Shown here in pieces: positions 2,432 to 63,117 of a stretch of 64,000 nucleotides of DNA (positions within the stretch are counted from its first letter, which is position 1; the number at the start of each line of letters is the position of its first letter). The notes beneath the pieces are model-generated. The model was not told where the DNA came from, searched no databases, and worked only from the letters and a program-made list of their open reading frames with translations. This DNA is from SAR324 cluster bacterium. GTDB taxonomy: Bacteria; SAR324; NAC60-12. Both the position numbers and the translations under genes were made by a program. Location: positions 27,436 to 91,435 of the forward strand of contig JADGAT010000001.1 of the NCBI GenBank assembly GCA_015231885.1, given 5' to 3'.

Positions 2432-2453
2432 TTATCTTTCCCTTTTTTTATGA

Positions 2454-13514: not shown

Positions 13515-13589
13515 TGGGGTGTAGCCAAGTGGTAAGGCAGCGGGTTTTGATCCCGTCATCCGCAGGTTCGATCCCTGCCACCCCAGCCA
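13515..13589 (+). tRNA. tRNA-Gln (anticodon UUG)
   Basis: Cloverleaf folded by hand. Acceptor UGGGGUG/CACCCCA with a U1-A72 pair typical of bacterial tRNA-Gln. D-arm GCC...GGC. Anticodon stem GCGGG/CCCGU with loop UUUUGAU, giving anticodon UUG. T-arm GCAGG-UUCGAUC-CCUGC, discriminator G and an encoded CCA. Confidence 0.9.
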
Positions 13590-16882: not shown

Positions 16883-17305
16883 CTACATGGACGAATGCTT
16901 TTTATAGAGAGCATTCCAGCGAGAAACACGACGAGCCGCTTCATTGATAGTTCGGATGATATTATCTATTTTTATTGGCTTTTCAAAATAGTCATAAGCT
17001 CCTCCTTTCATGCACTGAATCACATATTCCAGATTACTGTGCGCTGTAATCACATAAACCTGGATCAACGGATTCAGTTCCTTAATCTCACGTAGTAATT
17101 CCACACCTGTCATTTCAGCCATTTGAATATCAGTAATCACAACATGAAAATGACTCCTTTGCAGAGCAGACAATGCCTCTTCGGCTGTTTTTTCTAGGCT
17201 GACATGGTGGCCCAGTTTGGTCAGGGCCTTGTTCAGTATCATCCTCACATTGTCATCATCATCAACAACTAAAATATGAAGTGGGGTGAGTTCCTCTTTT
17301 TTCAT
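16883..17305 (-). CDS. single-domain response regulator (CheY-like receiver)
   Basis: Receiver motifs ILVVDDD, phospho-acceptor D in VVITDIQMAEM and K in YDYFEKP. The start is placed at MKKEEL, which has an AAAGGAA RBS. Confidence 0.8.
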   Translation of the reverse strand: MKKEELTPLHILVVDDDDNVRMILNKALTKLGHHVSLEKTAEEALSALQRSHFHVVITDIQMAEMTGVELLREIKELNPLIQVYVITAHSNLEYVIQCMKGGAYDYFEKPIKIDNIIRTINEAARRVSRWNALYKKHSSM

Positions 17306-17335
17306 CACATTCCTTTCTATGCATTCACACAAATG

Positions 17336-24140: not shown

Positions 24141-24581
24141 TCACTGACTGAAATCCATGTGATAGAGCATGATATAGACAAGCACTCCTGTTACTGAGAC
24201 AAAAAGCCAAATGGGATAGGCCCATTTTACCATCTTGCGGTGAGACTCTCTCTCTCCGCAAAACGCTTTATAAACAGCAATCAAAATCAGAGGAACCTGT
24301 ACGGCTGCCAAAATAATGTGCGGTATCAAAATGGCAAAATAGATAACACGGATGGTCCCAACCCCCTGAAAAGGAACTGAGCCCACATTGACATGGTAAA
24401 TCGAATAGCCGATCAGGAACAGTGCGGAGAACCCACAGGCAAGCAGCATGTAAAGCTTATGCCTGTCTTCCTGACCGTTTTTAATGGCCAAAAAGCCCAG
24501 CAACAGGAGACATGTTGTGATGCCGTTGAGAATTGCATTAAGAGTGGGTAAATCAGTAGTGCTCATGGACAGATTTAGCAA
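24141..24581 (-). CDS. DUF420-family small membrane protein (often linked to heme-copper oxidase loci)
   Basis: Four predicted TM helices and about 146 aa. Lies adjacent to ctaA on the same strand. Confidence 0.45.
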   Translation of the reverse strand: MLNLSMSTTDLPTLNAILNGITTCLLLLGFLAIKNGQEDRHKLYMLLACGFSALFLIGYSIYHVNVGSVPFQGVGTIRVIYFAILIPHIILAAVQVPLILIAVYKAFCGERESHRKMVKWAYPIWLFVSVTGVLVYIMLYHMDFSQ

Positions 24582-25581
24582 AAGAGTAGCTCAATAAACC
24601 GACAATTGTAGCCGCAATGGCAGTGTGTGCGGTGGATATCGAGGCAGGGATGCGATAAAGCGCATTCAAAATGCCGATGGAGATCTCTCCTAAAATTAAG
24701 ATACAGATCCAGATTCCGATCATGCGATAGGTTTTGTTGGAGTGATTATATAATGTTCGCCAGGATAAAACAAGCATTGTCAGTCCACCAGCAACAGCAA
24801 TCAAACGGTGTGTCATATGGATCCATTCGTTCTGAAATTTTGGCAAAAAAGCACCTTCTGCTACAGCCTCTCCCACATGAAAAGAAAAAACGCTCCCTTC
24901 ATGACATCCAGGAAATGCCGCACATGCATACCCGGAATAAGTACTACTGTTCGCCCCACCTGAAATCAGAATTACAAAAAACAGCAACAGCATTCCGGCT
25001 TGTTGTTTACTTAAATTCGACCATTGACGATTAGGAAGGCTATTCGGATGATGCTCATCATAATACGCTCGATAAGCCAGGAAAATCAACAGGCCAAATA
25101 AGACATTGCCTCCCACCAAATGGAAAACAACGGTTGGCGGAGAAAGCCGCATCAAAACCGTCAATCCACCCAAAATTCCCTGGATACAGACAAGCACGAA
25201 AATCCAGGCAGAAAGAAAACGGTAGTTTTTATACAGGGGTTTGGAATACGATAAAATCAAAAGGATGGTAATAAACAAGCCTAGCAAGGAGGCCACAAAA
25301 CGATGTCCAACTTCCAGCGCAATTTCAAATCCTGCAGGGGGTATAATTTGTCCATGGCATAATGGCCAATCGGGACAAGACATCCCTGCATTTTTCAAAC
25401 GCACATACGTACCAAAAGAGATCAACGGCCATGTCAAAATGGCAGATGCCAGCGTTATCCACCGGAAAAGCGGGTGTCTTTTAATCGAGATATCGCTGCT
25501 AACATCTTTTGTAATCGTTTCTTCTCCTGGAGAAAACTCATCAACTGGTGGAGGATTGCCGGGGGATGGAGATGGAACCAT
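24553..25581 (-). CDS. ctaA: heme A synthase CtaA (COX15 family)
   Basis: Multi-TM protein with the conserved Cys pair in the first loop (MSCPDWPLCHG) and His-containing helices. Confidence 0.75.
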   Translation of the reverse strand: MVPSPSPGNPPPVDEFSPGEETITKDVSSDISIKRHPLFRWITLASAILTWPLISFGTYVRLKNAGMSCPDWPLCHGQIIPPAGFEIALEVGHRFVASLLGLFITILLILSYSKPLYKNYRFLSAWIFVLVCIQGILGGLTVLMRLSPPTVVFHLVGGNVLFGLLIFLAYRAYYDEHHPNSLPNRQWSNLSKQQAGMLLLFFVILISGGANSSTYSGYACAAFPGCHEGSVFSFHVGEAVAEGAFLPKFQNEWIHMTHRLIAVAGGLTMLVLSWRTLYNHSNKTYRMIGIWICILILGEISIGILNALYRIPASISTAHTAIAATIVGLLSYSFAKSVHEHY

Positions 25582-25822
25582 TGTTTTCCGAAAGCTCGTT
25601 TATAGCATGATCGATTTTTTTCTGATGCCGCCTATAAAACCAAACAAATAGGCCGACCATCGTCAAGGGGAGCAAGCTCAAAAATATAGCAGTTGAATAA
25701 TAGGCAACCATGGACCCCTCTTTACCAGTAAAGCACACGGTGCAGGCAAATACTGGTGAAGAGAAGATCAATAATCCCAGGAACGTAATCACCGATTGTA
25801 TCAGCTTTGCGAACAAAATCAC
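25541..25822 (-). CDS. small 2-TM membrane protein of unknown function within the cox cluster
   Basis: 93 aa, two hydrophobic helices and a CTVCF motif. It overlaps the ctaA start by about 40 nt and could be spurious. Confidence 0.3.
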   Translation of the reverse strand: MILFAKLIQSVITFLGLLIFSSPVFACTVCFTGKEGSMVAYYSTAIFLSLLPLTMVGLFVWFYRRHQKKIDHAINELSENNGSISIPRQSSTS

Positions 25823-25823
25823 C

Positions 25824-26417
25824 TCAAATCAAATAAACCAAAACATAAAGGAAAGGCCAGACACCAACAACAAAATACCAAAAAATCTGCATGGAAAGAA
25901 ATTCTGCAGAATCAGGTTTTGTCTTTCTGGCAGGACTCAATCGCCAATAAGCATAGAACAACACCAACAGTGCCAGAACAGCATGAAGGGCATGAGTTCC
26001 AATAATTAAATAGAACAAAGCACCATAGGTACTGGATACCATTGTCAATCCAAACTGGATCAACTGCACCCACTCATATCCCTGGAATGCTACAAAAAAA
26101 ACTCCCAAGGCAATAGAAATACCAACCAATTTTTGAGGAAGAACAGAATTATCTTCCCTGAAAAATGTTTTATGGGCTTTGAGTAAAGCAGCACCACTCA
26201 AAAGTAAAATCACTGTATTGAATGATGTTGCAGCAACAGGCAACCTGGGTTGTCCCCACGGCGGCCATTCCAATGCGCCAGCACGAATAACCAGGTAAGC
26301 ACTGATCAATGAGGCAAAAAACATAATTTCTGTTGCCACAAAAAGCAGCATGGCAATCACCCCGCTGGGAACTACCTGCCTCCTGGGAATAGCGTTCGTG
26401 CCAGTATGAAGTGTCAT
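25824..26417 (-). CDS. heme-copper oxidase subunit III-like protein (second paralog)
   Basis: Five TM helices with the subunit-III conserved pattern (GTHALHAV..., YWHFVV-like). Confidence 0.65.
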   Translation of the reverse strand: MTLHTGTNAIPRRQVVPSGVIAMLLFVATEIMFFASLISAYLVIRAGALEWPPWGQPRLPVAATSFNTVILLLSGAALLKAHKTFFREDNSVLPQKLVGISIALGVFFVAFQGYEWVQLIQFGLTMVSSTYGALFYLIIGTHALHAVLALLVLFYAYWRLSPARKTKPDSAEFLSMQIFWYFVVGVWPFLYVLVYLI

Positions 26418-26428
26418 TAGGCTCCGTA

Positions 26429-26761
26429 TTACAGACGTTGTTCAACACAGGAAGAAGTGGCGATACAATCTTCCCAATTCTTGCCGGTATCAGTCATGAT
26501 ATCGGAGGACAACCCGACAAATAAAACCAAAAGTGCTACCAAGCCTGAAATGAGCATATACCAGACATACCTTTTCTCAATATTCAGGTGCATGAAGTAG
26601 GCAGCCACCATCAATGCTTTGACAATGGCAATACCAAAAGCAGTGATGAGAGTCAATACCGGTATTTCCAGCATTGGCCCTACAACACTAACTACCAACA
26701 GGAACAATAAAATGCCCCAAATTTTTACATAATTGGTGTGACCATGTGATTCTGCAGTCAT
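26429..26761 (-). CDS. cytochrome c oxidase subunit IV (prokaryotic CoxD/CyoD-like)
   Basis: About 110 aa and three TM helices. Sits between two subunit-III genes, as in cox/cyo operons. Confidence 0.5.
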   Translation of the reverse strand: MTAESHGHTNYVKIWGILLFLLVVSVVGPMLEIPVLTLITAFGIAIVKALMVAAYFMHLNIEKRYVWYMLISGLVALLVLFVGLSSDIMTDTGKNWEDCIATSSCVEQRL

Positions 26762-26782
26762 TATGAGTCTCCTGATAAAAGC

Positions 26783-27361
26783 TTATTTAGCAATGTAAAG
26801 TAAAGGAAATAAAAAGATCCAGACAATGTCTACAAAGTGCCAGTAAAGACCAATCAGCTCAACACGCTGCAACTCTTTACCTTTTTTCACATCCATGGAA
26901 ATAATGCCCATGATGACCATACCACCAATGACGTGAAGCGCATGAAGCCCCGTAGCCGTATAGTAGAATGACCAAAATACACTTTTAAAAATAGTATATC
27001 CATGAGAAATTTCCGTGGTATATTCATAGGATTTGACAAGAAGAAACACGAGTCCCATACCAATGGTGTACCAAATGAACTTAAAGGCTTTTTCAGTGTC
27101 CTTTTTTTCTGCTGCGGCATGAGCAAGTACAATAAACAAACTTGAGGTCAACAGCACAAAGGTATTGGTTGCTCCAGCAGCAGTACTGGTGTGCGATGCT
27201 TCATCTCCCCAGGATACGTTATTGAGACGCATGAGTAGATAACAAGTAACCAATCCTCCAAAAATGACTATTTCAGAAGCAATGACCCACCATACTGCCA
27301 GACGACCTGTAGGTATTCCAGTGACTTCCCTGGTGGTTGCTATTGGTTTCGCTAAAGACAT
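26783..27361 (-). CDS. ctaE: cytochrome c oxidase subunit III
   Basis: Subunit-III signatures (ATGLHALHVIGG, YWHFVDIVW). Confidence 0.8.
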   Translation of the reverse strand: MSLAKPIATTREVTGIPTGRLAVWWVIASEIVIFGGLVTCYLLMRLNNVSWGDEASHTSTAAGATNTFVLLTSSLFIVLAHAAAEKKDTEKAFKFIWYTIGMGLVFLLVKSYEYTTEISHGYTIFKSVFWSFYYTATGLHALHVIGGMVIMGIISMDVKKGKELQRVELIGLYWHFVDIVWIFLFPLLYIAK

Positions 27362-27408
27362 ATTCCATTCTCCAGAGTTCGATGTTTTTGAAAAATAAGT
27401 AGCTTTAT

Positions 27409-29112
27409 TTAATTGGGAGCATTCTGAGGCCAGTAGTCTTCGTCACGGCCTGGCACACTGTATTCATAAGGACCGCGATATACCGTGGGCAGTCCATCAG
27501 GAAAATTACCATGAGGTGGTGGAGAAGGAGCCACCCATTCCAAAGTATTGGCCTTCCAAGGATTATTGCCTGCTTCTTCTCCAGATTTCATGCTACGGAA
27601 CCAATTGATTACAAAAGGGATCTGGAAAAGCAGCATAATCACCGTTGCGGTAGTAGCTAATACGCGTAAATTTTGAAATTCTGGGCTCGCTAAATCAGGG
27701 AAATTCAAATAATTATAAATCCTTCGGTGCTGTCCCCCAATCCCAAGAGAGAAAAGAGGCATGAAAATAAAATTGAAAGGAATGATAGTTCCCCAAAAAT
27801 GAATTTTACCAAGCGTTTCGTTCATCATACGGCCAAACATTTTTGGATACCAGTAGTACATCCCTGCAAAACCACCAAGAATCACAATGGGAAACATGGT
27901 GTAATGGAAGTGAGCTACTACAAAAGTATTTTCATGAAAATAAATATCCAGTCCACTGGCACCCAAATAAATTCCAGTCACTCCGCCAACCAGAAATTCT
28001 GCAATCATCCCAATTGCCCACAGCATTGGCAGTTTGAATTCAATCGAGCCTCCGTATAGAGTCGCAATATAAGCAAAAAACGTGACAGCAATAGGAATCG
28101 AAATCAGGATGGTGGTGAAGCTGAAAACAGAAGCCATTCTTGGGTCAATTCCTGCGATAAACTGATGATGTGCCCACACAATCATGCTTAAAATTCCTAC
28201 CATGAATGTTGTATAAACAATCAGCTTGTAACCAAATAATTTTTTTCGAGAAAAAACCGTAATAATTTCTGCAACAATTCCCATTTCCGGCAACAAAATC
28301 ACATATACCTCAGGATGACCAAAGAACCAGAACAGATGCTGGAATAAAACCGGATCTCCTCCTCCAGACGGAATAAAAAAGCTGGTACCCAGCACCTGGT
28401 CAAAAAGCAGCATGACCGCTCCAGCAACCAGTGGGCCAACAGAAAACATGAACAAAACCACTGCGATGATTATCATCCAAATCACAATAGGGATATCCAT
28501 CATTTTCATGCCTGGCGCACGAGAGTTCATCACCGTGGTTACAAAATTGATCCCTCCCAGTAAGAAGGCCACAATCTCCAGTGCCACAGCCAGCAACCAT
28601 ATTGGAGCTCCGAGAGGAGTTAGATTATACTCACCACGAGCAGCAAGCGGAGGGTAAGTTGTCCATGCACCGCCAAATGCACCGCCTGGTACAAAAAAAC
28701 CAGCAAGAAGAAGAATCGTACTGATTAAAAAAATCTGGTACGATAAACGATTCAGCCGGGGAAATACCATGTCATCACAGCCGATCATCAGTGGAATTAA
28801 AAAATTTCCAAAAGCAGCAATCAGCATCGGCATGGCAACCCAGAAAATCATAATGGTGCCATGATTGGTAATCAAAGCGTTGTAATCCCCTGGTGTGACT
28901 AATCCAAAACCAGGCACGGATTCGCCGGGAAATGCCAATTGCATGCGGAAAACATACGCCATGAATCCACCAACGGCAGCCATGAATAAACCGGTAAATA
29001 AGTATTGAAAACCAATCATTTTATGATCGGTTGAAAAAACATATGTGCTCCAAAAATCCTGTTCGTGATGACCATGATGATCATCAACATGAGCAGTTAC
29101 GGTGTCACCCAT
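27409..29112 (-). CDS. ctaD: heme-copper oxidase subunit I
   Basis: 567 aa, 12 TM helices, His ligands (WAHHQF, HFHYTM, GHPEVY), and the canonical D/K-channel-era sequence. Confidence 0.92.
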   Translation of the reverse strand: MGDTVTAHVDDHHGHHEQDFWSTYVFSTDHKMIGFQYLFTGLFMAAVGGFMAYVFRMQLAFPGESVPGFGLVTPGDYNALITNHGTIMIFWVAMPMLIAAFGNFLIPLMIGCDDMVFPRLNRLSYQIFLISTILLLAGFFVPGGAFGGAWTTYPPLAARGEYNLTPLGAPIWLLAVALEIVAFLLGGINFVTTVMNSRAPGMKMMDIPIVIWMIIIAVVLFMFSVGPLVAGAVMLLFDQVLGTSFFIPSGGGDPVLFQHLFWFFGHPEVYVILLPEMGIVAEIITVFSRKKLFGYKLIVYTTFMVGILSMIVWAHHQFIAGIDPRMASVFSFTTILISIPIAVTFFAYIATLYGGSIEFKLPMLWAIGMIAEFLVGGVTGIYLGASGLDIYFHENTFVVAHFHYTMFPIVILGGFAGMYYWYPKMFGRMMNETLGKIHFWGTIIPFNFIFMPLFSLGIGGQHRRIYNYLNFPDLASPEFQNLRVLATTATVIMLLFQIPFVINWFRSMKSGEEAGNNPWKANTLEWVAPSPPPHGNFPDGLPTVYRGPYEYSVPGRDEDYWPQNAPN

Positions 29113-29837
29113 TTTACCTCTCCTATGTTACTGTTTGTTTGGTTCATTGCTACGGTTGCGACTTCATTGCCTGGATTCTTACTGGCTTTCGCCATCCATT
29201 GATCGTAGTCTGCAGGAGTGTGTATAAAAATTCTTGCTCCCATCAGGCCATGTCCAATTCCGCACATTTTGGTACATTGGATATCAAATTCCCCAGTTAA
29301 AGTTGGTTTGAACCAACCCGTAATGATCCTGCCAGGAATGACATCCTGCTTCAAACGAAAAACTGGCACAGAAAAACCATGCAGCACATCTTTGGATTCC
29401 AATTCAAAATGCACCACTTTGTTGACATTCACATGCAATTCATTGACGGTAGAAATGTCATCGGCCGTATTCAATTTGCCATCGGGTCCTTCGTGAATAA
29501 AGATCCAGGACCATTGCTGTCCAATGGCACGTACCTTTTCATCTTCAGCCGGCAAATTTAATTTAATATTGTTCCACACTTTGACAGTGGCTAAATCGAT
29601 CCATATATCGCACATCACCACCAAAGCTAAAGGAACAAAAATCCAGGCTAATTGCTTTTTTGTCTCCCCTGTAATGTAGAGGGCTTTCACTCCTTCTTTC
29701 TTGCGAAACCGAAAAACCAGGTAAAACAAGACAATTTCTGCCAAAATAAACCAAAATCCCACAAGGGAAGTTATTAAATTGAATAAATAATCCACCTCCC
29801 CACTAAAGGAAGCTGCACTCACAGGGAATTCCCACAT
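29097..29837 (-). CDS. ctaC: cytochrome c oxidase subunit II (CuA-containing)
   Basis: Two N-terminal TM helices and a cupredoxin domain. The CuA motif has canonical spacing (H...CTKMCGIGHGLM). There is no fused cytochrome c domain. Confidence 0.85.
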   Translation of the reverse strand: MWEFPVSAASFSGEVDYLFNLITSLVGFWFILAEIVLFYLVFRFRKKEGVKALYITGETKKQLAWIFVPLALVVMCDIWIDLATVKVWNNIKLNLPAEDEKVRAIGQQWSWIFIHEGPDGKLNTADDISTVNELHVNVNKVVHFELESKDVLHGFSVPVFRLKQDVIPGRIITGWFKPTLTGEFDIQCTKMCGIGHGLMGARIFIHTPADYDQWMAKASKNPGNEVATVAMNQTNSNIGEVKWVTP

Positions 29838-30004: not shown

Positions 30005-30340
30005 ATCATTCCTATATTTTATTCTAATTTTTGTAAAAAATTGGATTTTTTTGAGTAATCAACAAGGCGGGCGTGTTATGTCGATTACGTTTGAGGATTT
30101 TATCTTACCCGTGACTCACATCAAAAATCTTCAAAAATATGCGGGGCTGTAAATTCAAAGCCATATACATAATGAAGTGAATACAGGAAATCAAGTAATT
30201 ATTTATATTTACTTTATAATGTTCATATATTAGCATCCAATTAAGACGATTCTATTAAATGAGAGTTTTATCCGTTCGCAAAAGCACTTTTCGTGATGAA
30301 GCTACAACCATTTCAACCATTTTTTAACAGAGAAAGCAGA

Positions 30341-30898
30341 ATGTCCAATCCCGTATGTAAAAAAATTCGAGCACTGCGATTGCAGCATAATTTAACCCAG
30401 ATGGAGCTGGCATCAAAAGCTAAAATCCCCCGGGCATCTTTGGCAAACATGGAAAGTGAAAAAGGAAATCCTTCAATCATAGTCGTCACCAAAGTAGCAG
30501 AGGCATTAGGGGTGACAATAGATGACTTAGTTGAAAACAAAGACCACAGTTCTGTTACCAAAGTGAAGCGGGGCGATATGCAAGTGAACCGACAGGATGA
30601 AGGAAAATTTGCGATTACCTTGCTTTCACCATTGAATGCTCCTTATATCAATGTCAATGAAATAAATATGCTTCCGGGATGCTATTCAAAGGGAAAACCA
30701 CACCCTAAAGGAAGTCATGAGTTTTTTTATTGCCTTGAAGGAACTGCGGTTTTAGAAATTCAAGGAGACGCAATAGAGGTAAAGAGTGGAGATCTGGTCT
30801 ACTTCCCAGGAAACTTGCCTCATGTCTATTCTAACCCTGGGATAAAGCCGGTACACGCGGTTGCTGTCGTCAATATTGTGGAGCTTTCAAAAAGGTGA
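30341..30898 (+). CDS. XRE-family HTH + cupin domain transcriptional regulator
   Basis: N-terminal HTH (LRLQHNLTQMELASKAKIPRASLANME) and a C-terminal cupin fold (GDLVYFPGNLPHVYSNPG). Convergent with ctaB, with stop codons 2 nt apart. Confidence 0.7.
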   Translation: MSNPVCKKIRALRLQHNLTQMELASKAKIPRASLANMESEKGNPSIIVVTKVAEALGVTIDDLVENKDHSSVTKVKRGDMQVNRQDEGKFAITLLSPLNAPYINVNEINMLPGCYSKGKPHPKGSHEFFYCLEGTAVLEIQGDAIEVKSGDLVYFPGNLPHVYSNPGIKPVHAVAVVNIVELSKR

Positions 30899-30900
30899 AA

Positions 30901-31821
30901 TCATGCAAAGATCTGCTCCAGAATCATGACAAACCATAAGACAGGAAAATAAACGATAGAAGCAATAAAGACCCTCTTTGCATTGAGTACACTCTTTTCT
31001 TTAAAGAAAAGAACTGTTGTCATCAAAAATAAGCATCCTAATCCTGCGGCACTAACCAAATAAAAAATTCCTGCTTGATTGGTAAAAAATACAGACAAGC
31101 TGGCAATCAAAAGCAAAAGCGTATTGACAAATATCTGGTAGCTCGTTTTTTTACCAGTTGGGTCATCCAGGGAAAGCATCCGAAAGTTTCCGTTTCTGTA
31201 GTCATCACGGTACATCCATGAAATGGCAAAGAAATGAGGAAGCTGCCAAAAATACAAAATAGCAAAAAGGGTCAGTGCTTCCAGTTCCAGAGTTCCACGT
31301 GCCGCAGTCCAGCCCATGAGGGGAGGCAGTGCGCCAGGGACTGCACCAATCCAAGTGTTTAAAACGGTTTTCTGTTTAAGGGGAGTATAAATAAAAAGGT
31401 AAGAGCTCCAGGTCAGAAAACCCAAGATGGTAGTGAGCCAGTTGACCGTCACAGCAAGATAGCTCAATCCTATCAAGGAAATGACCATTCCAAAGCGCAG
31501 TGCTTCATCACTGCTGATTCGCCCTGATGGAATAGGACGATTTTTTGTCCGCCGCATACGAGCATCAACATCCTGCTCGTACCATTGATTCAGCGAGTTA
31601 GCTCCGGCTCCTACACACCCAGTTCCCAACAAAACATTGAACAATAACAAAAAGTTTTGTCCTTGCCAGGAAGATAAATAAAAACCAATACCGGTTGTAA
31701 TCAGAACCAGCATCAATAAACGCAATTTACCAAGTTCCGTATAGTCGGAAAGTTTGTTTCGTCCGGCTGGCACAATAGACTCGAGAACAATCGATTTTTC
31801 TTTTAACATACAACTCACCAA
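30901..31821 (-). CDS. ctaB: protoheme IX farnesyltransferase (heme O synthase) CtaB/CyoE
   Basis: UbiA-family polyprenyltransferase with the NQWYEQDVDARMRRTKNRP motif and about 9 TM helices. Confidence 0.8.
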   Translation of the reverse strand: MVSCMLKEKSIVLESIVPAGRNKLSDYTELGKLRLLMLVLITTGIGFYLSSWQGQNFLLLFNVLLGTGCVGAGANSLNQWYEQDVDARMRRTKNRPIPSGRISSDEALRFGMVISLIGLSYLAVTVNWLTTILGFLTWSSYLFIYTPLKQKTVLNTWIGAVPGALPPLMGWTAARGTLELEALTLFAILYFWQLPHFFAISWMYRDDYRNGNFRMLSLDDPTGKKTSYQIFVNTLLLLIASLSVFFTNQAGIFYLVSAAGLGCLFLMTTVLFFKEKSVLNAKRVFIASIVYFPVLWFVMILEQIFA

Positions 31822-32015
31822 TTCAATCCAAACAGAAATAAAACGTCAGATACAACATGAATATGACAGATAATTCAAGTTATTTTTTTTGGAGGGAGCC
31901 AAATATAAAAAGAAAAATCACTTTAAAGTAGGGAGTGCTTGCAGTTTTGTACATTTATTGAATATAACTTATCATAAGGTCAATCGTTTCGATACCAAAA
32001 AAACTTTTCCATCTT

Positions 32016-33584
32016 TTGAACCGTGACATGAATAACCCTTCGAAACAAAAATATTACCAGCAAATCGCTAATAAAAAACGCGATTTTCCGGCATTAATCA
32101 TCATCAGTGAAAACAGTTGTGTCGTGTATACCCATTGCGGAACAGGACCCAAATATGAGGAAGTCTTCAAAGAATTTGAATCGTTTCATGAGCAAAACCT
32201 TGGTGGATCTCTCCTGGCATCGTTGTCTGAAAATGATCGTACTGCTTTGCAGAACTGGATAGATATTCTCTATGACGAAACCTATGTCGAATTGATGATG
32301 CCGGAAGATATTGTCAAACTGTGCCCCTCATTTTCTCTCACCTGGACAGATGGACAAAACTATGAGGTGCGTTTTGAAGCAATCAAAACCGAAGTCATTT
32401 ATGAGTATGTTCTGGTATGGCTGGAGCCCCATGGACACACTCAGCAGCAGCAACTGGCATCCGATATTATTGAATTGATGGGCGAGTTGAGAGCAGCCCC
32501 ACGAGAGGTGATCAATAATCTAAGAGAATACCTGCCAGAAGTGAATACGAACATCAATTTCGCTAGCTATGCCGATATTGAAGACTCAGAAGAGTTATTG
32601 CATCAACTTTCCCGGCATTTGCACGCAGCAAAGGGGACCACTTTTTTTCTTGGATTTTCCACATTGGGGAATGCATGTCATGGTGCTGAATCGAAGCTTG
32701 GAGAGTTGAGAGGCACATGGCAGCTGTCCGATGGACTGCAGCCGATTCGTGACGTACTCAGCCAATTACAATTGTTATTGAACCTGGCAGAAGGAATCAG
32801 TACAAAAGTATACAACTCTAGCGCAGAATCTGAGGAAGAAGAAATGTCTGTCTCTCGCTCTGATTATTATGAGATATTGGGCAATGCTGCTTTGATTTAT
32901 GAGGAATGGAAACATTTATTTGAAAAAGAAGAAAAACTCGTTCTTTTGATCGATCAACTATATCATGGGTTGATACATCTAGATGCTGTGCCTATTACAA
33001 CCCTTTTTGAAAGATTAAATAGCTCAACAGCTCAACTTTCAAAAGAGCTCGACAAATCCGTGGAATTTTCCGTTGGTTCGAACTCTCCCACGGTACACCT
33101 CCCTCACCGGGTATTAGATGGTTTATGGAATGCCCTCTATCAGGTGTTAAAAAATGCGATCGATCATGGAATTGAAGATCCTCCCACCAGAGCCAAGTGC
33201 AACAAATCTCCTGTTGGACAAATTATATTCACTGTGAACGTAATAGACGAACTGCTCGTCTTACAATTACATGACGATGGTAGGGGAATCAATCCGCAAG
33301 ATATCATTCGAACTGCTGTAGAACGAGGGGTCATTTCCAAGGAAAAAGCAAAGCAACTGGAAGGGTTCGATTCTACAGATGAAATTTACCAATTGCTATT
33401 CTCTCCAGGATTTTCCACACAGAAAGTAGTTACGACCATCTCAGGCAGGGGGGTTGGCACCGATGTCATTCGCGAAGAAATTGAAGAATACTCGGGACAA
33501 ATTTCTATTGTTTCTGAAGTCGGACAGTGGACGGAATTTATTTTGAGAGTCCCCATTGCTCCTAACCACATTGTCGTAGAATGA
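32016..33584 (+). CDS. CheA-like HPt-containing histidine kinase lacking a CheW-like domain
   Basis: HPt-like motif LHAAKGTTFFLGFSTLGNACHGAESKLGEL (compare CheA P1 HSIKGgagtFGf). The C-terminal HATPase_c has G-box motifs (DDGRGINPQDI, GRGVGTDVI). The protein ends right after the ATPase domain. Confidence 0.55.
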   Translation: MNRDMNNPSKQKYYQQIANKKRDFPALIIISENSCVVYTHCGTGPKYEEVFKEFESFHEQNLGGSLLASLSENDRTALQNWIDILYDETYVELMMPEDIVKLCPSFSLTWTDGQNYEVRFEAIKTEVIYEYVLVWLEPHGHTQQQQLASDIIELMGELRAAPREVINNLREYLPEVNTNINFASYADIEDSEELLHQLSRHLHAAKGTTFFLGFSTLGNACHGAESKLGELRGTWQLSDGLQPIRDVLSQLQLLLNLAEGISTKVYNSSAESEEEEMSVSRSDYYEILGNAALIYEEWKHLFEKEEKLVLLIDQLYHGLIHLDAVPITTLFERLNSSTAQLSKELDKSVEFSVGSNSPTVHLPHRVLDGLWNALYQVLKNAIDHGIEDPPTRAKCNKSPVGQIIFTVNVIDELLVLQLHDDGRGINPQDIIRTAVERGVISKEKAKQLEGFDSTDEIYQLLFSPGFSTQKVVTTISGRGVGTDVIREEIEEYSGQISIVSEVGQWTEFILRVPIAPNHIVVE

Positions 33585-33795: not shown

Positions 33796-34320
33796 GTGTT
33801 TTCCCCAGAGGGACAAAAAAAAGTAAATCATCTACTCAGTCGCTATCCAGTCAAAGCCAATGCATTACTGCCTGTCCTACACCTAGCCCAAAAGGAAAAT
33901 AAAGGTTATTTAACTCCCGAATGGCTCGAGCATGCTGCCAAATTGTGTGAAGTTCCATTAGCTCATGTCGAGGGAGTAGCAACATTTTATACCATGTTTA
34001 AATTTCGTCCTCTTGGTAAATACCACCTTCAGGTTTGTACTAATGTTTCCTGCACACTGTGTGGCGGATCAGAGATTTTAGAGCACCTGGAAGAACGTTT
34101 GAATGTTCATGCAGGACACACAACAGAAGATGGACAATTCAGTCTAGAAGAAGTGGAATGTTTGGGGGCTTGCGGTTATGGGCCTGTTGTCATTGTCAAT
34201 GAGGACTATCATGAGCACCTTACCATTGAAGAAATGGATGCAATGATTGATAAACTGGCAAAGAGTACCGAAGAGTGGCCTGAACGGATCCTCCCCATCA
34301 CTGGAGCATCGTCTTCATAG
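33796..34320 (+). CDS. nuoE: NADH-quinone oxidoreductase subunit E (24 kDa)
   Basis: Thioredoxin-like [2Fe-2S] cysteine motifs (CTNVSCTLCG...CLGACGYGP). GTG start with an AAGGAGG RBS. Confidence 0.85.
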   Translation: MFSPEGQKKVNHLLSRYPVKANALLPVLHLAQKENKGYLTPEWLEHAAKLCEVPLAHVEGVATFYTMFKFRPLGKYHLQVCTNVSCTLCGGSEILEHLEERLNVHAGHTTEDGQFSLEEVECLGACGYGPVVIVNEDYHEHLTIEEMDAMIDKLAKSTEEWPERILPITGASSS

Positions 34321-34363
34321 ACTTGCTTGTGTTGACTAATTTACAACAGTTGGAAAGTTTCCC

Positions 34364-35620
34364 ATGTTACAAGAAACACTTGTTCTGTTTAAAAATGTAA
34401 GAAAACCCGGGTACAAAGGCAACTTAGCCAGTTATAAAGCAGAAGGGGGCTACTCTGCTCTCAAAAAAGCATTGAAAATGACGCCGGAAGAAATTGTGAG
34501 CATTGTCAAAGAATCCAATGTTCGCGGCCGAGGCGGTGCTGGATTTCCGACAGGCCTCAAGTGGAGCTTCATGGCAAAAAATACAGGAAAACCCAGTTAT
34601 CTGATTGTCAACGCAGACGAAGGAGAGCCTGGTACCTTCAAAGATCGTGAAATCATGCTCAAAGATCCACACATGTTTCTCGAAGGATACATGATTGGAT
34701 GCTATGCCTTGGGTTGCCATCATGGTTATATTTATGTTCGGGGAGAATTCGTCCCAGCCATGAAACAACTGCAGAAAGCCATTGATGAATGCTATGAGGC
34801 CGGACTTCTTGGTCCTTCTATGTGGGGTTCTAAATTTCCTCTGGACATGACCATTCATCCTGGTGCTGGAGCCTATGTTTGTGGAGAAGAAACAGCATTG
34901 CTGGATTCGTTAGAAGGAAAGCGGGGCCAGCCTAGAACCAAACCGCCATTTCCTGCGGTTGCCGGGTTCAACGGATGCCCAACAAGTGTCAATAATGTAG
35001 AAACCATCACCGCTGTTACCTCCATTATCAATGATGGTGCAGAAGCATTTAAAGAATTGGGCACTCCAAATAACTCAGGAACTCACTTGGTCAGTCTCAG
35101 TGGACATGTTAACAAGCCTGGAGTCTACGAATTACGGATGGGAGTTTCTTTAAAAGATATCATTTATGATTTAGGAGGGGGCATTAAAAATGGAAAGAAG
35201 CTCAAAGGCGTCATTCCAGGAGGTTCTTCTACTCCCGTCCTGCTGCCGGAAGAAATTGACATCCCTTACGATTTTGACTCCTTGATGAAGGTTAAAAGTA
35301 TGATGGGATCTTCCGCCATTATGGTGTTTGATGAGGATACCGATGTAGTCAAACTTCTGCATCGGATGGTACGATTTTATAATCACGAATCATGTGGACA
35401 ATGCACTCCATGTCGAGAAGGAACCCATTGGAGCAGTATGATTTTACGGGACTTTGTGTACAAACAAGGCTCTGCTGCAAAACTGGATCGTTTGAAGAGA
35501 GTCAGCGGCAATATCCTCGGTGCTACTTTATGTGCCCTCGGAGATGCGTGTGCCATGCCGATTCTATCCTTTATTGAAAAATACCCTGAAGAATTCCGTG
35601 CCTATTTTGCGGATGCTTGA
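34364..35620 (+). CDS. nuoF: NADH-quinone oxidoreductase subunit F (51 kDa)
   Basis: FMN/NADH-binding GRGGAGFPTG motif and the C-terminal [4Fe-4S] motif ESCGQCTPCREG. Confidence 0.9.
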   Translation: MLQETLVLFKNVRKPGYKGNLASYKAEGGYSALKKALKMTPEEIVSIVKESNVRGRGGAGFPTGLKWSFMAKNTGKPSYLIVNADEGEPGTFKDREIMLKDPHMFLEGYMIGCYALGCHHGYIYVRGEFVPAMKQLQKAIDECYEAGLLGPSMWGSKFPLDMTIHPGAGAYVCGEETALLDSLEGKRGQPRTKPPFPAVAGFNGCPTSVNNVETITAVTSIINDGAEAFKELGTPNNSGTHLVSLSGHVNKPGVYELRMGVSLKDIIYDLGGGIKNGKKLKGVIPGGSSTPVLLPEEIDIPYDFDSLMKVKSMMGSSAIMVFDEDTDVVKLLHRMVRFYNHESCGQCTPCREGTHWSSMILRDFVYKQGSAAKLDRLKRVSGNILGATLCALGDACAMPILSFIEKYPEEFRAYFADA

Positions 35621-35642
35621 TCATTAAATTGAAGGAATTGTA

Positions 35643-37235
35643 ATGCCGACATTTTATCTCGATGACAACCCTATAGAATTCGAGCCTGGTGAAAAGGTTC
35701 TGGCTGCTGCGCTGCGATCAGGATTTCATATTCCTCACTATTGTTACCATCCTGCGTTGTCTATTGTTGCTACCTGCCGAATGTGCCTTGTTGACGTAGT
35801 GGACATGGGAAATGGTCGTCCTGCCCCCAAGCTGATGACCTCATGTTCTATGGATCCTGCCGATGGTATGAAAATCGAGACAAAAAATGAAAAAGTGAAA
35901 GAAGCTCGAGAGTTGGTAATGGAATTTTTACTGGTCAATCATCCTTTGGATTGTCCGATCTGTGATCAAGCAGGAGAGTGCACACTGCAAGACTTTTCTT
36001 TTGAGTACGGTTCTGGCTCTTCAGAAATGGAATATTCCAAACGTGTCTATGGGTGGCGTGATATTGGTACGTTTGTGATGTTGGAACGGAACCGCTGTAT
36101 CCACTGTACCCGTTGCCACCGTTTTACGACAGAGGTTACCGGAACCCATGAATTTGGAACATTCAACCGTTCTCATCAATTGACGGTAGATACGTTTACG
36201 GATCGCCCGATGACAAATAAGTTCCAGGGAAATATGGCCGATATTTGTCCGGTCGGATGCATCACAGAGCGTGAATTCCGCTTCAAACGCCGTGCATGGA
36301 AACTGCAAAAAACAAACTCCATCTGTACCCACTGCTCCACGGGCTGCAATATCACGGTAGAGCAAGACCAAAACACGGTATTTCGTTTGAAGCCTAGAGA
36401 AAATCAAGAGGTTAACCAGTGGTGGATGTGTGATGATGGCCGTGTTAGCCTTCGCCAGTTCAACAACAAGAAAAACCGAATCATGCAGCCGATGGGACGT
36501 GTGCAGGGGACTCTTGTTAAAGCCAGTTGGGAACAAATCTATGAGGCCATAAAAGACAAAGTGAAACAATTGGCTGTCAAAAAAGATGAAGTTGTGGCCA
36601 TTACAGACACACATGCCAGTAACGAGGAATTGTTTTTGTTGAAAAAACTGCTCCACGATGTTTTTAGCTCAGAGCATGTTTTCTTTCCGCTCCGTCTCTG
36701 GGCACAACCCGATTCTCCTAATTTTATTGATACATTGATTACAACAGACAAAAGCCCGAATACAGCAGGAGCAATCGCACTGGGAATAAAAGGCAATGAG
36801 GATGATAGTGCTCTCAAACAAGTGCTGAGTGAAAAAACCAAGCTCGCTTTTGTGTTGGGCAATCCGTTGGGCAAAGAATCTGAAATTTATGATTTGGTAT
36901 CGAAAGCAGACCTGATCATTTGTATTGGTACAGTTCTTAATGAGTGGGCAGAGCGCGCAGATGTTCTGCTGCCGGGCTCCACACCTGTGGAAAAAGAGGG
37001 GACATTTATCAATAAAAATCACCGGGTCCAAAAAATCAATGCTGCCGTTAAAGCTCCCCGGCATGCTAAAGCCGACTGGTTGATTCTACAGGAGTTGATT
37101 CAATCTTTGGGAAAACAATCAACATTTCAATCGACATCTGAAATTTTTAATTCCCTGGCCACCACATTAGAAACATTTCAAGGGTTAACATTCGAAGATG
37201 TGGGCGATCTTGGCTGCTCACTCCCGGCCACATAA
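35643..37235 (+). CDS. nuoG: NADH-quinone oxidoreductase subunit G (75 kDa, short 530-aa form)
   Basis: N-terminal [2Fe-2S] and [4Fe-4S] cysteine clusters (CRMCLVDV, HPLDCPICDQAGEC, CIHCTRCHRF) plus a molybdopterin-like region. AAGGAA RBS. Confidence 0.85.
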   Translation: MPTFYLDDNPIEFEPGEKVLAAALRSGFHIPHYCYHPALSIVATCRMCLVDVVDMGNGRPAPKLMTSCSMDPADGMKIETKNEKVKEARELVMEFLLVNHPLDCPICDQAGECTLQDFSFEYGSGSSEMEYSKRVYGWRDIGTFVMLERNRCIHCTRCHRFTTEVTGTHEFGTFNRSHQLTVDTFTDRPMTNKFQGNMADICPVGCITEREFRFKRRAWKLQKTNSICTHCSTGCNITVEQDQNTVFRLKPRENQEVNQWWMCDDGRVSLRQFNNKKNRIMQPMGRVQGTLVKASWEQIYEAIKDKVKQLAVKKDEVVAITDTHASNEELFLLKKLLHDVFSSEHVFFPLRLWAQPDSPNFIDTLITTDKSPNTAGAIALGIKGNEDDSALKQVLSEKTKLAFVLGNPLGKESEIYDLVSKADLIICIGTVLNEWAERADVLLPGSTPVEKEGTFINKNHRVQKINAAVKAPRHAKADWLILQELIQSLGKQSTFQSTSEIFNSLATTLETFQGLTFEDVGDLGCSLPAT

Positions 37236-37256
37236 CTCAAATACAACGGACTCCAT

Positions 37257-37763
37257 ATGCTGTTTACTTTTTATCTTTTTGCCGTGATCGCAGTTGCCAG
37301 TTCCTTGGGGGTACTGATTTGCAGAAACCCCATTTATAGTGCCATGTCCCTCGTATGTACCTTCTTTTGCTTGGGAGTGATTTACATACTGCTCAATGAA
37401 GAATTTGTAGCAGTGATACAAATCTTGGTTTATGCAGGTGCAATACTGGTTCTGTTTCTATTTGTCATCATGCTTCTCAATATCACTCCGGATGGCGAAT
37501 TGTTTCGATTGAATATACCAAAAGTCATTGGCATTGGAATTACTATCGGATTCCTTGCACAAATCATTGGTTTGTTTTTGAGTGGTCTCCAGTATGGACC
37601 AAAGGACATCTACACCGTAGAAAAATTGACTGAAGAAGGTTCAATTGCCGTAATTGGACGCCTGTTGTATGGAGAGTATGTACTTCCTTTTGAAGTGGTA
37701 TCTCTCTTGCTTCTGGTTGCCGTGATTGGTGCCGTCATAATTGGTAAACGCCGTTTAGACTAA
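37257..37763 (+). CDS. nuoJ: NADH-quinone oxidoreductase subunit J
   Basis: Five-TM hydrophobic ~168 aa protein in the conserved position between G and K. Confidence 0.7.
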
Positions 37764-37773
37764 GGAAATTCTG

Positions 37774-38076
37774 ATGATTCCTACACAACATGTTCTCATT
37801 CTCAGTGCTGTTTTGTTCACAACAGGTGTACTGGGGGTCATGTTGCGACGCAATGTGATTGTAATATTCATGAGCATTGAATTGATGCTCAACGCCGTGA
37901 ATCTTTCTTTTGTTGCTTTTGCCAGAGCGCTGGACTCGATGACAGGTATCATTTTTATCTTTTTCATCATCGTAGTTGCTGCTGCAGAGGCAGTGGTTGG
38001 CTTATCCATCATTCTATCCATCTATCGCAATCAAAAAACTCTGAATGTGGATGAATTCAACTGGCTCAAATGGTAA
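37774..38076 (+). CDS. nuoK: NADH-quinone oxidoreductase subunit K
   Basis: 100 aa, three TM helices, conserved Glu residues ([19 protein letters not shown]). AAGGAAA RBS. Confidence 0.85.
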
Positions 38077-38142
38077 TTGCCTTCCAGTGGCACAGGCGGC
38101 TGAAAACAAACACTCAGACCATTATTTCCAGGAGAAATGTAT

Positions 38143-53526: not shown

Positions 53527-54300
53527 TCAGGATGTCACTGGTACTAATTCAAATCCAAATTGTTTAGCCTGACGTTTTAGACGTTGTAACGCGTTTGAAT
53601 CCTTTTGAGAGAAATACTCTTCTCCGAGTTCGTGATAGGATTTTCCCTCTTTGAGGATCAAGTAAATAACTTTGAGTATTTTATGAGCAATAGCGACAAT
53701 GGCTTTTTTAGAACCTCGACGGGATTTGAGTCGATAATATTTGGCTTTCCAAAAGCTGTTTTTCTTTTTGACAGCGGCCCAGGCCATTTCCACAAGCATT
53801 TCTCGAAAAAGATGTTTTTTAGCCGGGTTGCTCCCATTGCGTCTTTTGCCGGCACTTTCGTTATTGCCGGGACAAACTCCGGCCCAGTTGCTCAAGGCCT
53901 CCGGGGATCGAAAGGCCATCAGATCAGGGCCCAATTCGCCTAGAATAGATTGAGAGGCGACTTTATCAATGCCAGGAATTTCATCGAGCCGTTTCAAGGC
54001 TTCTTGATGGTCGCCCATGAGGCTTTCTACTTGCTTTTCAAGAGCGGTAATCTCATTCTCTAGTGTATTCAGGATATGGAGCAAACTCCGTAATTGAAAA
54101 CGATGGTGGTCATTAAAAAAGCCTTGGATAGAACGATATAATTCCTCAGATTTATTAACAAGGGTTCCACGACATTGTTGTTGAACGCCCTCTAAAGTGG
54201 GTTGAGAACATTCAAGTAAATAGCGCATCAAATTTCGACCGGTCACTCCAAAGAGTTCGGAGACCACAGAATCAATTTTGATATTAGCTGTTTCAAACAA
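53527..54300 (-). mobile_element. IS110-family transposase remnant (C-terminal Transposase_20 region only; N-terminal DEDD catalytic domain missing)
   Basis: 257 aa matching the C-terminal two-thirds of IS110-family transposases (LDEIPGIDKVASQSILGELG, HLFREMLVEMAWAAVKKK, AIVAIAHKIL). An in-frame stop lies immediately upstream, and no N-terminal domain is found in any frame of the adjacent 210 bp. Confidence 0.7.
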
Positions 54301-59336: not shown

Positions 59337-59562
59337 TTTCTAAGCATTTGAAATCAATGATTTTAAAATCTTTCCCGACAAATTGGGTACCTCGTCCCCA
59401 TATTTTTAATCAAACTTTTCTGTTACCGTAGGATTGTATTTTTTTATTCCATGGAAGTCGTTTTCTATGGGACAAGTCATGACATACATCAAGGCGACAG
59501 AGCTGGAATGAACATAAGGCTCATGTTAGTGAAATGAAGCAACTGAAACAAAATGGATTACC

Positions 59563-61913: not shown

Positions 61914-61966
61914 GAGACGGCGGGTTTAAATCGTCTTCAAACAGGAGGAAAAAGGATAGCGGTATA

Positions 61967-63097: not shown

Positions 63098-63117
63098 ACG
63101 TTCTTATAAATCATTGG

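What the first reader, a model, noticed from the sequence alone, without database searches (positions are those of the whole stretch)
32016..33584. Orphan CheA-like kinase (HPt + HATPase_c) without CheW-binding domain or chemotaxis neighbours
The protein has a CheA P1-like HPt motif, LHAAKGTTFFLGFSTLGNACHG, and a C-terminal CheA-type ATPase domain. It ends immediately after the ATPase and has no P5/CheW-like domain. No che, mcp or flagellar genes are nearby. It sits between ctaB and the nuoEFG genes. The ~180 aa N-terminal region is unassigned. This architecture suggests a non-chemotaxis phosphorelay input.
Basis: partly seen in the sequence, partly recalled or inferred. Interest (0 to 1): 0.5.

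Follow-up and report, generated by a model that had tools for sequence, protein, structure and literature searches.

The report
CheA-type kinase with PAS sensor, no CheW domain
A marine SAR324 bacterium carries a conserved relative of the chemotaxis kinase CheA that has lost the module which plugs CheA into chemoreceptor arrays and has instead its own PAS-fold sensor domain, so it probably signals on its own, possibly in connection with aerobic respiration.

The parts
32028..33584 (+). Coding sequence of the PAS-P1-P3-P4 kinase (518 aa plus stop). The TTG at 32016 is an upstream in-frame alternative that adds 4 aa.
   Evidence: ORF list. P0001 is 100% identical and 518 aa. All orthologues start at this Met. 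dN/dS is about 0.05 against the 86%-identical orthologue.
32079..32435 (+). N-terminal PAS-fold domain (residues 18-136). It has two strands, a helical segment and three strands, and is the most conserved domain of the protein.
32442..32810 (+). Connector helix (139-156) plus a CheA-type P1/Hpt helical bundle (159-261). The phospho-acceptor is His199 (nt 32622-32624), with R196, K202, G203, H218 and E221 around it.
   Evidence: Pfam Hpt. The Hpt profile hits CheA P1 structures first: 1tqg E 3e-6, then 2ld6, 8c5v_C and 1i5n. H199, K202, G203, H218 and E221 are invariant in all 17 members, and R196 is nearly so (Lys in the outgroup P0122). Translation checked.
32856..32981 (+). P3-like two-helix hairpin (277-318), the presumed dimerization domain. 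It is the least conserved part of the protein.
   Evidence: AlphaFold2 helices 277-294 and 302-318. Foldseek aligns 257 columns to the 250-residue P3P4 chain 4xiv_A with TMt 0.70. phmmer and hhalign cover only the second helix. Pfam H-kinase_dim is not detected. Mean identity is 37%.
32985..33557 (+). CheA-type P4 catalytic (HATPase_c) domain (320-510). The N, G1, F and G2 boxes are present. The N-box residue equivalent to T. maritima His405 / E. coli His376 is an invariant Gln372 (nt 33141-33143).
   Evidence: Motifs KNAIDHG, DDGxG, PGFST and GRGVGT are conserved. Gln is present in 17/17 family members against His in 22/22 canonical CheAs sampled.
33558..33581 (+). Eight-residue C-terminal tail (PIAPNHIVVE region) with invariant N513 and I515. 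It corresponds to the P4-P5 linker and the first strand of the missing P5.
   Evidence: Alignments, hhalign end point, predicted strand 515-517.
31922..31936 (+). Conserved intergenic block TTTAAAGTRGSGAGT between ctaB and the kinase gene. It is a candidate shared cis-regulatory element, followed about 12 nt later by TTTGTAYA.
   Evidence: Unique in the window, with 0.02 matches expected by chance. It occurs as a single copy 88-108 bp upstream of the kinase ATG in L001, L006/L011 and L009, although synonymous sites between these lineages are saturated.
30901..31821 (-). ctaB (heme O synthase, UbiA family), divergently transcribed from the kinase gene.
   Evidence: Pfam UbiA, E 6e-56. The same arrangement occurs in L001, L006, L009 and L013.
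24141..29837 (-). aa3-type cytochrome c oxidase cluster (coxII, coxI, two COX3 genes, ctaA, DUF420). This is the recurrent neighbour of the kinase family.
   Evidence: Pfam, ORFs, and synteny in 7 of 10 lineages.

Best explanation
The gene encodes a soluble, self-contained sensor histidine kinase of CheA (class II) ancestry that works outside chemoreceptor arrays. A cytoplasmic PAS-fold domain is joined through a highly conserved helix directly to the P1 phosphotransfer domain, and it takes the place of the receptor/CheW/P5 input. Two subunits pair through the P3 hairpin. P4 binds ATP and phosphorylates His199 of P1, and P1 then passes the phosphoryl group to a response regulator encoded elsewhere in the genome. 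The PAS domain most likely sets how readily P1 reaches P4. Because the gene stays next to the aa3 cytochrome oxidase/heme-A genes while everything else around it changes, the cue or the output is probably tied to aerobic respiration (oxygen, redox or energy state). What is shown: the domain anatomy, the conserved catalytic residues, the absence of P2 and P5, purifying selection, the lineage restriction and the cox linkage. What is inferred: kinase activity, dimerization, PAS control of P1, the nature of the signal and the partner.
For: Domain anatomy. The P1 active-site residues H199, K202, G203, H218 and E221, and the N, G1, F and G2 boxes, are invariant in 17 members spanning 32-100% identity; R196 is conserved in all but the outgroup. 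dN/dS against the 86%-identical orthologue is 0.04 for PAS, 0.02 for Hpt and 0.07 for P4. All members end at the same point and none has PF01584. No CheW, MCP or CheY lies within about 10 kb in 10 lineages, and there is no che or flagellar gene in the 64-kb window. The PAS domain and the PAS-P1 connector are the best-conserved parts, at 72% and 78% mean identity. The gene is divergent from cox/ctaB in 7 of 10 lineages, including the outgroup P0122 at 33% identity, while the flanks on both outer sides differ. A conserved intergenic element is shared with ctaB.
Against: No biochemistry exists. The N-box His that coordinates Mg2+/phosphate in CheA (PMC10410752) is Gln in the whole family, so the catalytic rate could be altered. 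P3 is supported only by the structure prediction and a partial sequence match. The PAS fold comes from an AlphaFold2 model built on 16 sequences, and no cofactor signature is evident (no invariant His or Cys in the PAS core). Three lineages (P0013, P0016, P0017) lack the cox neighbourhood, so the respiratory link may be inherited gene order and nothing more. The rest of the genome could not be searched for CheW, MCP or CheY genes, and some SAR324 genomes do carry chemotaxis genes (PMC4782131).
Confidence: 0.6

Rival explanations
1. It is still a chemotaxis kinase. It would be one half of a split CheA, with the P5/CheW-like module or another adaptor encoded elsewhere, perhaps docking on the conserved C-terminal N-H-I-V tail, so that the kinase is still controlled by chemoreceptor arrays.
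For: Bipartite CheAs exist, such as separately encoded Hpt domains and the Cereibacter CheA3/CheA4 pair (PMC10782961). The tail that corresponds to the P4-P5 linker and first P5 strand keeps invariant N513 and I515. An MCP gene lies 6.5 kb away in the TL4 contig. Some SAR324 genomes have chemotaxis genes (PMC4782131).
Against: Known split CheAs keep their parts in one operon. Here no CheW-like gene lies within about 10 kb in any of 10 lineages. The protein carries its own sensor domain, which the surveyed CheAs lack (PMC10782961). The context is respiratory and not motility-related.
Confidence: 0.12
2. The protein is mainly a phosphorelay intermediate or phosphate sink. On this view its Hpt domain shuttles phosphate from the receiver domains of the many hybrid kinases, and the P4 domain, weakened by the His-to-Gln change, is regulatory and not catalytic.
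For: The N-box His is replaced by Gln in all members. The window itself encodes at least three hybrid kinases with receiver domains that would need an Hpt partner.
Against: Every other ATP-binding motif (N-box Asn, G1, F, G2) is invariant and P4 is under strong purifying selection. The Hpt is closest to CheA P1 and keeps the K/H/E residues that line up with CheA K51, H67 and E70; that these assist P4-catalysed phosphorylation is from my knowledge of CheA. Gln is a conservative, hydrogen-bonding replacement. None of the hybrid kinases is linked to the gene in other lineages.
Confidence: 0.1
3. It is an array-independent PAS sensor kinase as proposed, but the cox neighbourhood is only inherited gene order. 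The signal and output would then have nothing to do with respiration.
For: Three lineages lack the cox neighbour. All cox-linked lineages belong to one phylum-level group. No response regulator or transcription factor is consistently linked. The PAS domain has no recognizable heme, flavin or LOV ligand residues.
Against: The adjacency survives in the outgroup member at 33% identity and across rearrangements on both outer flanks. It also survives a change of the immediate neighbour from ctaB to coxII. A conserved non-coding block lies in the shared promoter region.
Confidence: 0.35
4. It is a decaying CheA remnant or an assembly or frameshift artefact.
For: None beyond the truncated appearance.
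Against: 17 independent sequences have the same ends. dN/dS is about 0.05. Only 211 bp of intergenic DNA lie before nuoE.
Confidence: 0.01

Closest known systems
CheA chemotaxis histidine kinase (class II HK; P1-P2-P3-P4-P5)
   Same: P1 has the CheA-type phospho-His site (R-x-x-H-x-x-K-G ... H-x-x-E). There is a P3-like hairpin. P4 is 31-38% identical to T. maritima CheA P4 and keeps the N-box Asn and the G1, F and G2 boxes. The order P1-P3-P4 is the same, and like about half of all CheAs it lacks P2 (PMC10782961).
   Different: It has no P5/CheW-like domain, which was found in 100% of 13,673 surveyed CheAs. It carries an N-terminal PAS-fold sensor, whereas CheA 'lacks a sensor (input) domain' (PMC10782961). 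It has no che, MCP or flagellar gene neighbours. The N-box His is replaced by Gln.
Cytoplasmic PAS-containing class I sensor kinases (for example FixL, NtrB, KinA, LOV-HK, YF1)
   Same: A soluble PAS-fold sensor lies N-terminal to a kinase core, joined by a helical connector. The likely logic is a sensor domain directly controlling autophosphorylation. The full-length model also draws weaker Foldseek hits to LOV-histidine-kinase chimeras.
   Different: The phospho-acceptor sits on a monomeric Hpt four-helix bundle and not on a DHp/HisKA dimerization helix (no HisKA hit). Dimerization (P3) and phospho-acceptance (P1) are separate domains, so PAS-to-kinase coupling cannot use the usual coiled-coil-to-DHp route.
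Split or atypical CheAs (Cereibacter sphaeroides CheA3/CheA4; CheAs with a separately encoded Hpt)
   Same: They depart from the canonical five-domain CheA by losing domains.
   Different: Those retain P5 on every part, are co-encoded in che operons and reside in receptor arrays (PMC10782961). This family has no P5 and no che context.
Aer / Aer2 energy- and oxygen-taxis receptors
   Different: In Aer and Aer2 the PAS domain sits on a separate chemoreceptor that controls CheA through CheW/P5. Here it is fused to the kinase itself, and the heme or FAD ligands are not recognizable.

Membership tests
CheA (core domains as defined in PMC10782961) | P1/Hpt domain with the conserved phospho-acceptor His | tested here: met
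   Pfam Hpt scores 29.2 bits against a cut-off of 24.6. The Hpt profile hits CheA P1 1tqg at E 3e-6 with the H, K, G, H and E residues aligned. These residues are invariant in 17 members.
CheA (core domains as defined in PMC10782961) | P3 / H-kinase_dim dimerization hairpin | tested here: inconclusive
   Pfam H-kinase_dim is not detected, which PMC10782961 reports is common. AlphaFold2 predicts a two-helix hairpin at 277-318. Foldseek aligns the whole P3P4 chain 4xiv_A with TMt 0.70. Sequence and profile matches cover only the second helix. Dimerization itself was not tested.
CheA (core domains as defined in PMC10782961) | P4 CheA-type HATPase_c catalytic domain | tested here: met
   E 3e-34 to T. 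maritima CheA P4. hhalign probability 99.9. Foldseek TMt 0.85-0.88. The N-box Asn and the G1, F and G2 boxes are kept, but the N-box His is Gln.
CheA (core domains as defined in PMC10782961) | P5 / CheW-like receptor-coupling domain (present in 100% of surveyed CheAs) | tested here: not met
   There is no PF01584 hit at E<=10. None of the 17 precomputed family members has it. The protein ends 6 residues after the P4-P5 junction. Only 211 bp of non-coding DNA follow.
CheA (core domains as defined in PMC10782961) | No sensor domain of its own; input comes from chemoreceptors; encoded with che or MCP genes | tested here: not met
   A PAS-fold domain is present at the N-terminus. No CheW, MCP or CheY gene lies within about 10 kb in 10 lineages. 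There are no che or flagellar genes in the window.
Class I (HisKA/DHp) sensor histidine kinases | DHp/HisKA dimerization helix carrying the H-box histidine | tested here: not met
   No HisKA-family hit at E<=10. Matches to class I kinases are confined to the C-terminal part of the ATPase domain.
PAS domain superfamily | Five-stranded antiparallel sheet with flanking helices (PAS fold) | tested here: met
PAS domain superfamily | Recognition by PAS sequence models, or known cofactor-binding residues (LOV Cys, heme His, PYP Cys) | tested here: not met
   No Pfam PAS model hits at E<=10. No PDB sequence hit. There is no invariant Cys or His in the PAS core once P0122 is included. Ligand binding cannot be tested with these tools.

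The most novel reading that the evidence does not exclude
This is a natural CheA lineage that has exchanged receptor-array control (P5/CheW) for a built-in PAS sensor. That would make it the first array-independent, one-protein 'sensor CheA'. It would be dedicated to sensing oxygen, redox or energy state and to tuning aa3 cytochrome oxidase and heme-A biogenesis in SAR324. It would also provide a minimal soluble system in which control of P1 access to P4, the unresolved core of CheA regulation, could be studied without arrays.
Probability: 0.3. Interest if true: 0.65.

Novelty: new variant of a known kind. Interest (0 to 1): 0.5.

Why it matters
CheA is the textbook example of a histidine kinase that has no sensor of its own and is controlled only inside receptor-CheW arrays. 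The largest survey found the array-coupling P5 domain in every CheA. A conserved and clearly selected family that keeps the CheA phosphorylation machinery (P1, P3, P4), drops P5 and adds a private PAS sensor shows that the class II kinase core can be rewired into an ordinary stand-alone sensor kinase. If it is active, it would be a simple soluble model for how P1-P4 encounters are gated. It would also point to an unrecognized regulatory input near the respiratory genes of SAR324, an abundant but uncultured deep-ocean lineage. The find is lineage-restricted and purely computational so far, which keeps the interest moderate.

Tried and rejected
1. Frameshift or hidden P5: rejected. Only 211 bp lie before nuoE and all 17 members end at the same point.
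2. HisKA instead of Hpt: rejected.
3. Sequence-level identification of the N-terminal domain: no credible Pfam, NCBIfam or PDB hit. Only the fold search succeeded.
4. Search for the N-terminal domain in other architectures: 4 hits among 1.84 billion representatives. Three are family members and one (P0123) is a spurious cadherin-like repeat protein.
5. Conserved adjacent partner: the stand-alone receiver in the window (16883-17332) and the one near P0016 share only 27% identity and are not orthologues. The window receiver is most like NtrC-type receivers in the PDB.
6. The STAS gene that follows the kinase in the P0011 lineage has no counterpart beside the window gene. The only weak hit is at 59557-59808.
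7. The promoter/terminator scan around the gene found nothing above chance.
8. The AFDB (afdb50) fold search for proteins of the same architecture was not available.
9. The metagenome-contig scan added only one locus and the GTDB genome scan only four, so context statistics rest on 10 lineages.
10. Literature searches for a P5-less or PAS-fused CheA found no precedent. The library covers open-access papers only, so absence is not proof.
11. Whole-genome presence of CheW, MCP or CheY in the host could not be tested with the tools available.

Full report
**1. The observation**

The window has an ORF at 32016..33584 on the + strand. The TTG at 32016 only gives the longest possible reading. The identical NCBI protein (P0001, 518 aa, 'Hpt domain-containing protein [SAR324 cluster bacterium]') and all orthologues begin at the ATG at 32028, so I number from there.

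Pfam finds an Hpt domain (29.2 bits, cut-off 24.6) and HATPase_c (53.8 bits). It finds no CheW, H-kinase_dim or HisKA model even at E<=10. The ATPase is specifically CheA-type:
- NCBIfam CheA equivalogs are the top partial hits.
- T. maritima CheA P3P4 and P4 chains match at E about 1e-33 to 3e-34 with 31-38% identity.
- A profile comparison with Thermotoga CheA aligns to residues 338-541 of 671. The alignment stops at the 'LPLTL' P4-P5 junction, and the SAR324 protein ends six residues later.

The next gene, nuoE, starts 211 bp downstream behind a strong Shine-Dalgarno sequence. There is therefore no room for a 130-residue P5 in any frame.

**2. The window**

Pfam scans of 48 ORFs show a respiratory neighbourhood:
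- Upstream on the minus strand lie DUF420, ctaA, two COX3 genes, coxI and coxII. An XRE-cupin regulator follows on the + strand, and then ctaB on the minus strand, divergent from the kinase gene.
- Downstream lie nuoE, F, G, J, K and L, followed by skp and fabZ. Further on are mfd and sdhCAB.
- There is no che, MCP or flagellar gene anywhere in the 64 kb.
- Other two-component genes exist but are distant: a stand-alone receiver at 16883-17332, and a cluster of PAS-HisKA-HATPase-REC hybrid kinases at 57-64 kb.

**3. A conserved, sharply bounded family**

The protein database returns 17 full-length relatives (47-100% identity, 518-568 aa), none with a CheW domain. Scores then drop abruptly from 520 to 147 bits, where canonical CheAs match only the P4 region. 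A profile of the N-terminal 150 residues was searched against 1.84 billion representative proteins. It finds only family members plus one spurious repeat protein. Among the hits is a further, very divergent member, P0122 (496 aa, 32-33% identity), with the same architecture from end to end.

The named sources are SAR324 cluster bacteria and 'Deltaproteobacteria bacterium TL4'. Against the 86%-identical orthologue, dN/dS is about 0.05 overall, 0.04 for the N-terminal domain, 0.02 for Hpt and 0.07 for P4. dS is near saturation, so these are rough values. The truncation is therefore an ancient, selected state and not a frameshift or a decaying gene.

**4. Anatomy**

The full-length AlphaFold2 model has mean pLDDT 79 and pTM 0.46, so the domains are reliable but their mutual arrangement is not. 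It gives the following domains.

(ii) A helix at 139-156 leads directly into the Hpt bundle (159-261). A profile of this region hits CheA P1 structures first (1tqg at E 3e-6, then 2ld6, 8c5v_C and 1i5n). The alignment pairs R196, H199, K202, G203, H218 and E221 with the T. maritima residues R-x-L-H-x-x-K-G ... C-H-x-x-E. From established knowledge of CheA these are the phospho-acceptor His48 and its helpers Lys51, His67 and Glu70 (E. coli numbering). H199, K202, G203, H218 and E221 are invariant across all 17 sequences, and R196 is Lys only in P0122.

(iii) After a disordered linker comes a two-helix hairpin (277-318). Foldseek superposes the model on the complete P3P4 chain 4xiv_A (257 columns, TMt 0.70). 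This is the least conserved part of the protein (37% mean identity), which agrees with the statement in PMC10782961 that P3 is poorly conserved and often missed by HMMER.

(iv) P4 (320-510) has KNAIDHG (N box), DDGxG (G1), PGFST (F) and GRGVGT (G2), all conserved.

(v) An eight-residue tail carries invariant N513 and I515. It corresponds to the P4-P5 linker and the first P5 strand.

P2 is absent, as it is in about half of all CheAs (PMC10782961).

One active-site deviation stands out. The N-box residue equivalent to T. maritima His405 / E. coli His376 is Gln in 17 of 17 family members and His in 22 of 22 canonical CheAs that I sampled. PMC10410752 lists this His as a conserved Mg2+-coordinating residue. 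Its effect here is unknown.

**5. Context across lineages**

I obtained the neighbourhoods of ten distinct lineages. In seven of them the gene lies immediately next to, and divergent from, the aa3 cytochrome oxidase cluster:
- In the window and in the P0002, P0005, P0006 and P0012 lineages the immediate neighbour is ctaB.
- In the P0011 and P0122 lineages it is coxII.

The far side of the cox cluster and the downstream side of the kinase differ between lineages. Downstream I found nuoEFG, a STAS gene followed by nuoEFG, sarcosine-oxidase-like genes, a peptidase and a metallo-beta-lactamase. In a midpoint-rooted distance tree P0122 is the outgroup, so the linkage is probably ancestral. The three lineages without it (P0013, P0016, P0017) probably lost it.

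No receiver, CheW or MCP gene is consistently nearby. One MCP lies 6.5 kb away in the TL4 contig. One receiver lies 3.5 kb away in the P0016 contig, and it is not orthologous to the window's receiver (27% identity).

The ctaB-kinase intergenic region holds a conserved block, TTTAAAGTRGSGAGT. It is unique in the window (0.02 matches expected by chance). It occurs as a single copy 88-108 bp upstream of the kinase ATG in four lineages whose synonymous sites are saturated. This looks like a shared regulatory element.

**6. Mechanism**

The most economical reading is a self-contained cytoplasmic sensor kinase. Subunits dimerize through P3, P4 phosphorylates His199 on P1, and P1 passes the phosphoryl group to an unlinked response regulator. 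The PAS domain and the connector helix are the best-conserved segments (72% and 78% mean identity). They would replace the receptor/CheW/P5 input, most plausibly by controlling whether P1 can reach P4.

The persistent cox/ctaB linkage suggests that the signal or the output concerns aerobic respiration. I hold this part with lower confidence. It rests on gene order within one phylum-level lineage, and the PAS core has no invariant His or Cys that would point to heme, or to a LOV- or PYP-type chromophore.

The rivals are: a split chemotaxis CheA whose P5 is supplied in trans; an Hpt relay or phosphate sink with a weakened ATPase; and the same sensor kinase with no respiratory role. Each is set out in the report sections with the result that would refute it. 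The artefact and pseudogene reading is excluded.

**7. Comparison with what is known**

The protein works like a cytoplasmic PAS sensor kinase but is built from CheA parts. As a member of the CheA family it fails two defining features that I tested:
- It lacks the P5/CheW domain, which was found in 100% of 13,673 CheAs.
- It carries a sensor domain and has no chemosensory gene context (PMC10782961).

It is not a class I kinase either, because it has no HisKA/DHp domain. Known atypical CheAs, whether split, duplicated or fused to REC or CheC/CheX, all keep P5 and a che operon context. My literature searches found no description of a P5-less, PAS-fused CheA. The library is limited to open-access texts, so this is absence of evidence only.

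**8. Verdict**

I rate the finding as a new variant of a known kind: a lineage-specific, array-independent derivative of CheA with its own PAS input and a recurrent link to the cytochrome oxidase genes. Interest is moderate (0.5). The architecture contradicts a stated universal about CheA and offers a simple system for studying CheA regulation. However, it is confined to an uncultured lineage, and activity, ligand and partner are all untested.

Noticed in passing
window 31922-31936 (and L001 9913-9927, L006 9903-9917, L009 5936-5950): There is a conserved 15-nt block, TTTAAAGTRGSGAGT, in the divergent ctaB-kinase promoter region. It is followed about 12 nt later by TTTGTAYA (a TGTATACA palindrome in two lineages). 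It is unique in each locus and is conserved although synonymous sites are saturated. It may be an operator or promoter element.
   Followed up: partly
window 33796-40050: The complex I genes here are nuoE, F and G followed directly by nuoJ, K and L, and then skp and fabZ. No nuoA-D, H, I, M or N gene lies in this cluster. NuoG is short (530 aa). The same E-F-G-J-K-L order occurs in the P0011 lineage (L004). This is an unusual partial nuo operon.
   Followed up: no
window 33141-33143 (Gln372 of the kinase): The N-box His that coordinates Mg2+/phosphate in CheA (T. maritima H405, E. coli H376) is Gln in all 17 family members. It is His in 22 of 22 canonical CheAs sampled.
   Followed up: partly
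L004 11600-11971 (-) and L005 8088-8459 (-): In the P0011 lineage a 123-aa STAS-domain protein is encoded convergently, immediately after the kinase gene and before nuoE. The window has no counterpart at that position.
   Followed up: partly
window 57081-63981: This is a cluster of conventional two-component proteins: PAS-PAS-HisKA-HATPase-REC (57081-59336), REC-PAS-HisKA-HATPase-REC (59880-61913), REC-HATPase (61967-63097, minus strand) and a further HATPase protein (63118-63981, minus strand). A small STAS-like ORF lies at 59557-59808 between the first two.
   Followed up: no
window 30293-30898 (+): An XRE-HTH/cupin regulator is inserted between coxII and ctaB. It is present only in the window and its closest relative (L009). 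It is absent from the same position in L001, L006 and L013.
   Followed up: partly
window 19943-22855 (+): A 970-aa bacterial protein with at least nine WD40 repeats (two or more beta-propellers) lies next to an alpha/beta hydrolase, just beyond the cox cluster.
   Followed up: no
window 6790-8997 (+): A 735-aa protein combines a metallo-beta-lactamase domain with two cyclic-nucleotide-binding domains. A CdaA-type diadenylate cyclase and its YbbR partner lie nearby at 1571-3446.
   Followed up: no
window 53527-54300 (-): An IS110-family transposase (Transposase_20) is the only mobile-element gene seen in the window.
   Followed up: no
window 13515-13586 (+): A single tRNA gene is the only Rfam gathering-threshold hit in the window.
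   Followed up: no
window 41255-42475 (+): A 406-aa ORF has no Pfam match at E<=0.001.
   Followed up: no
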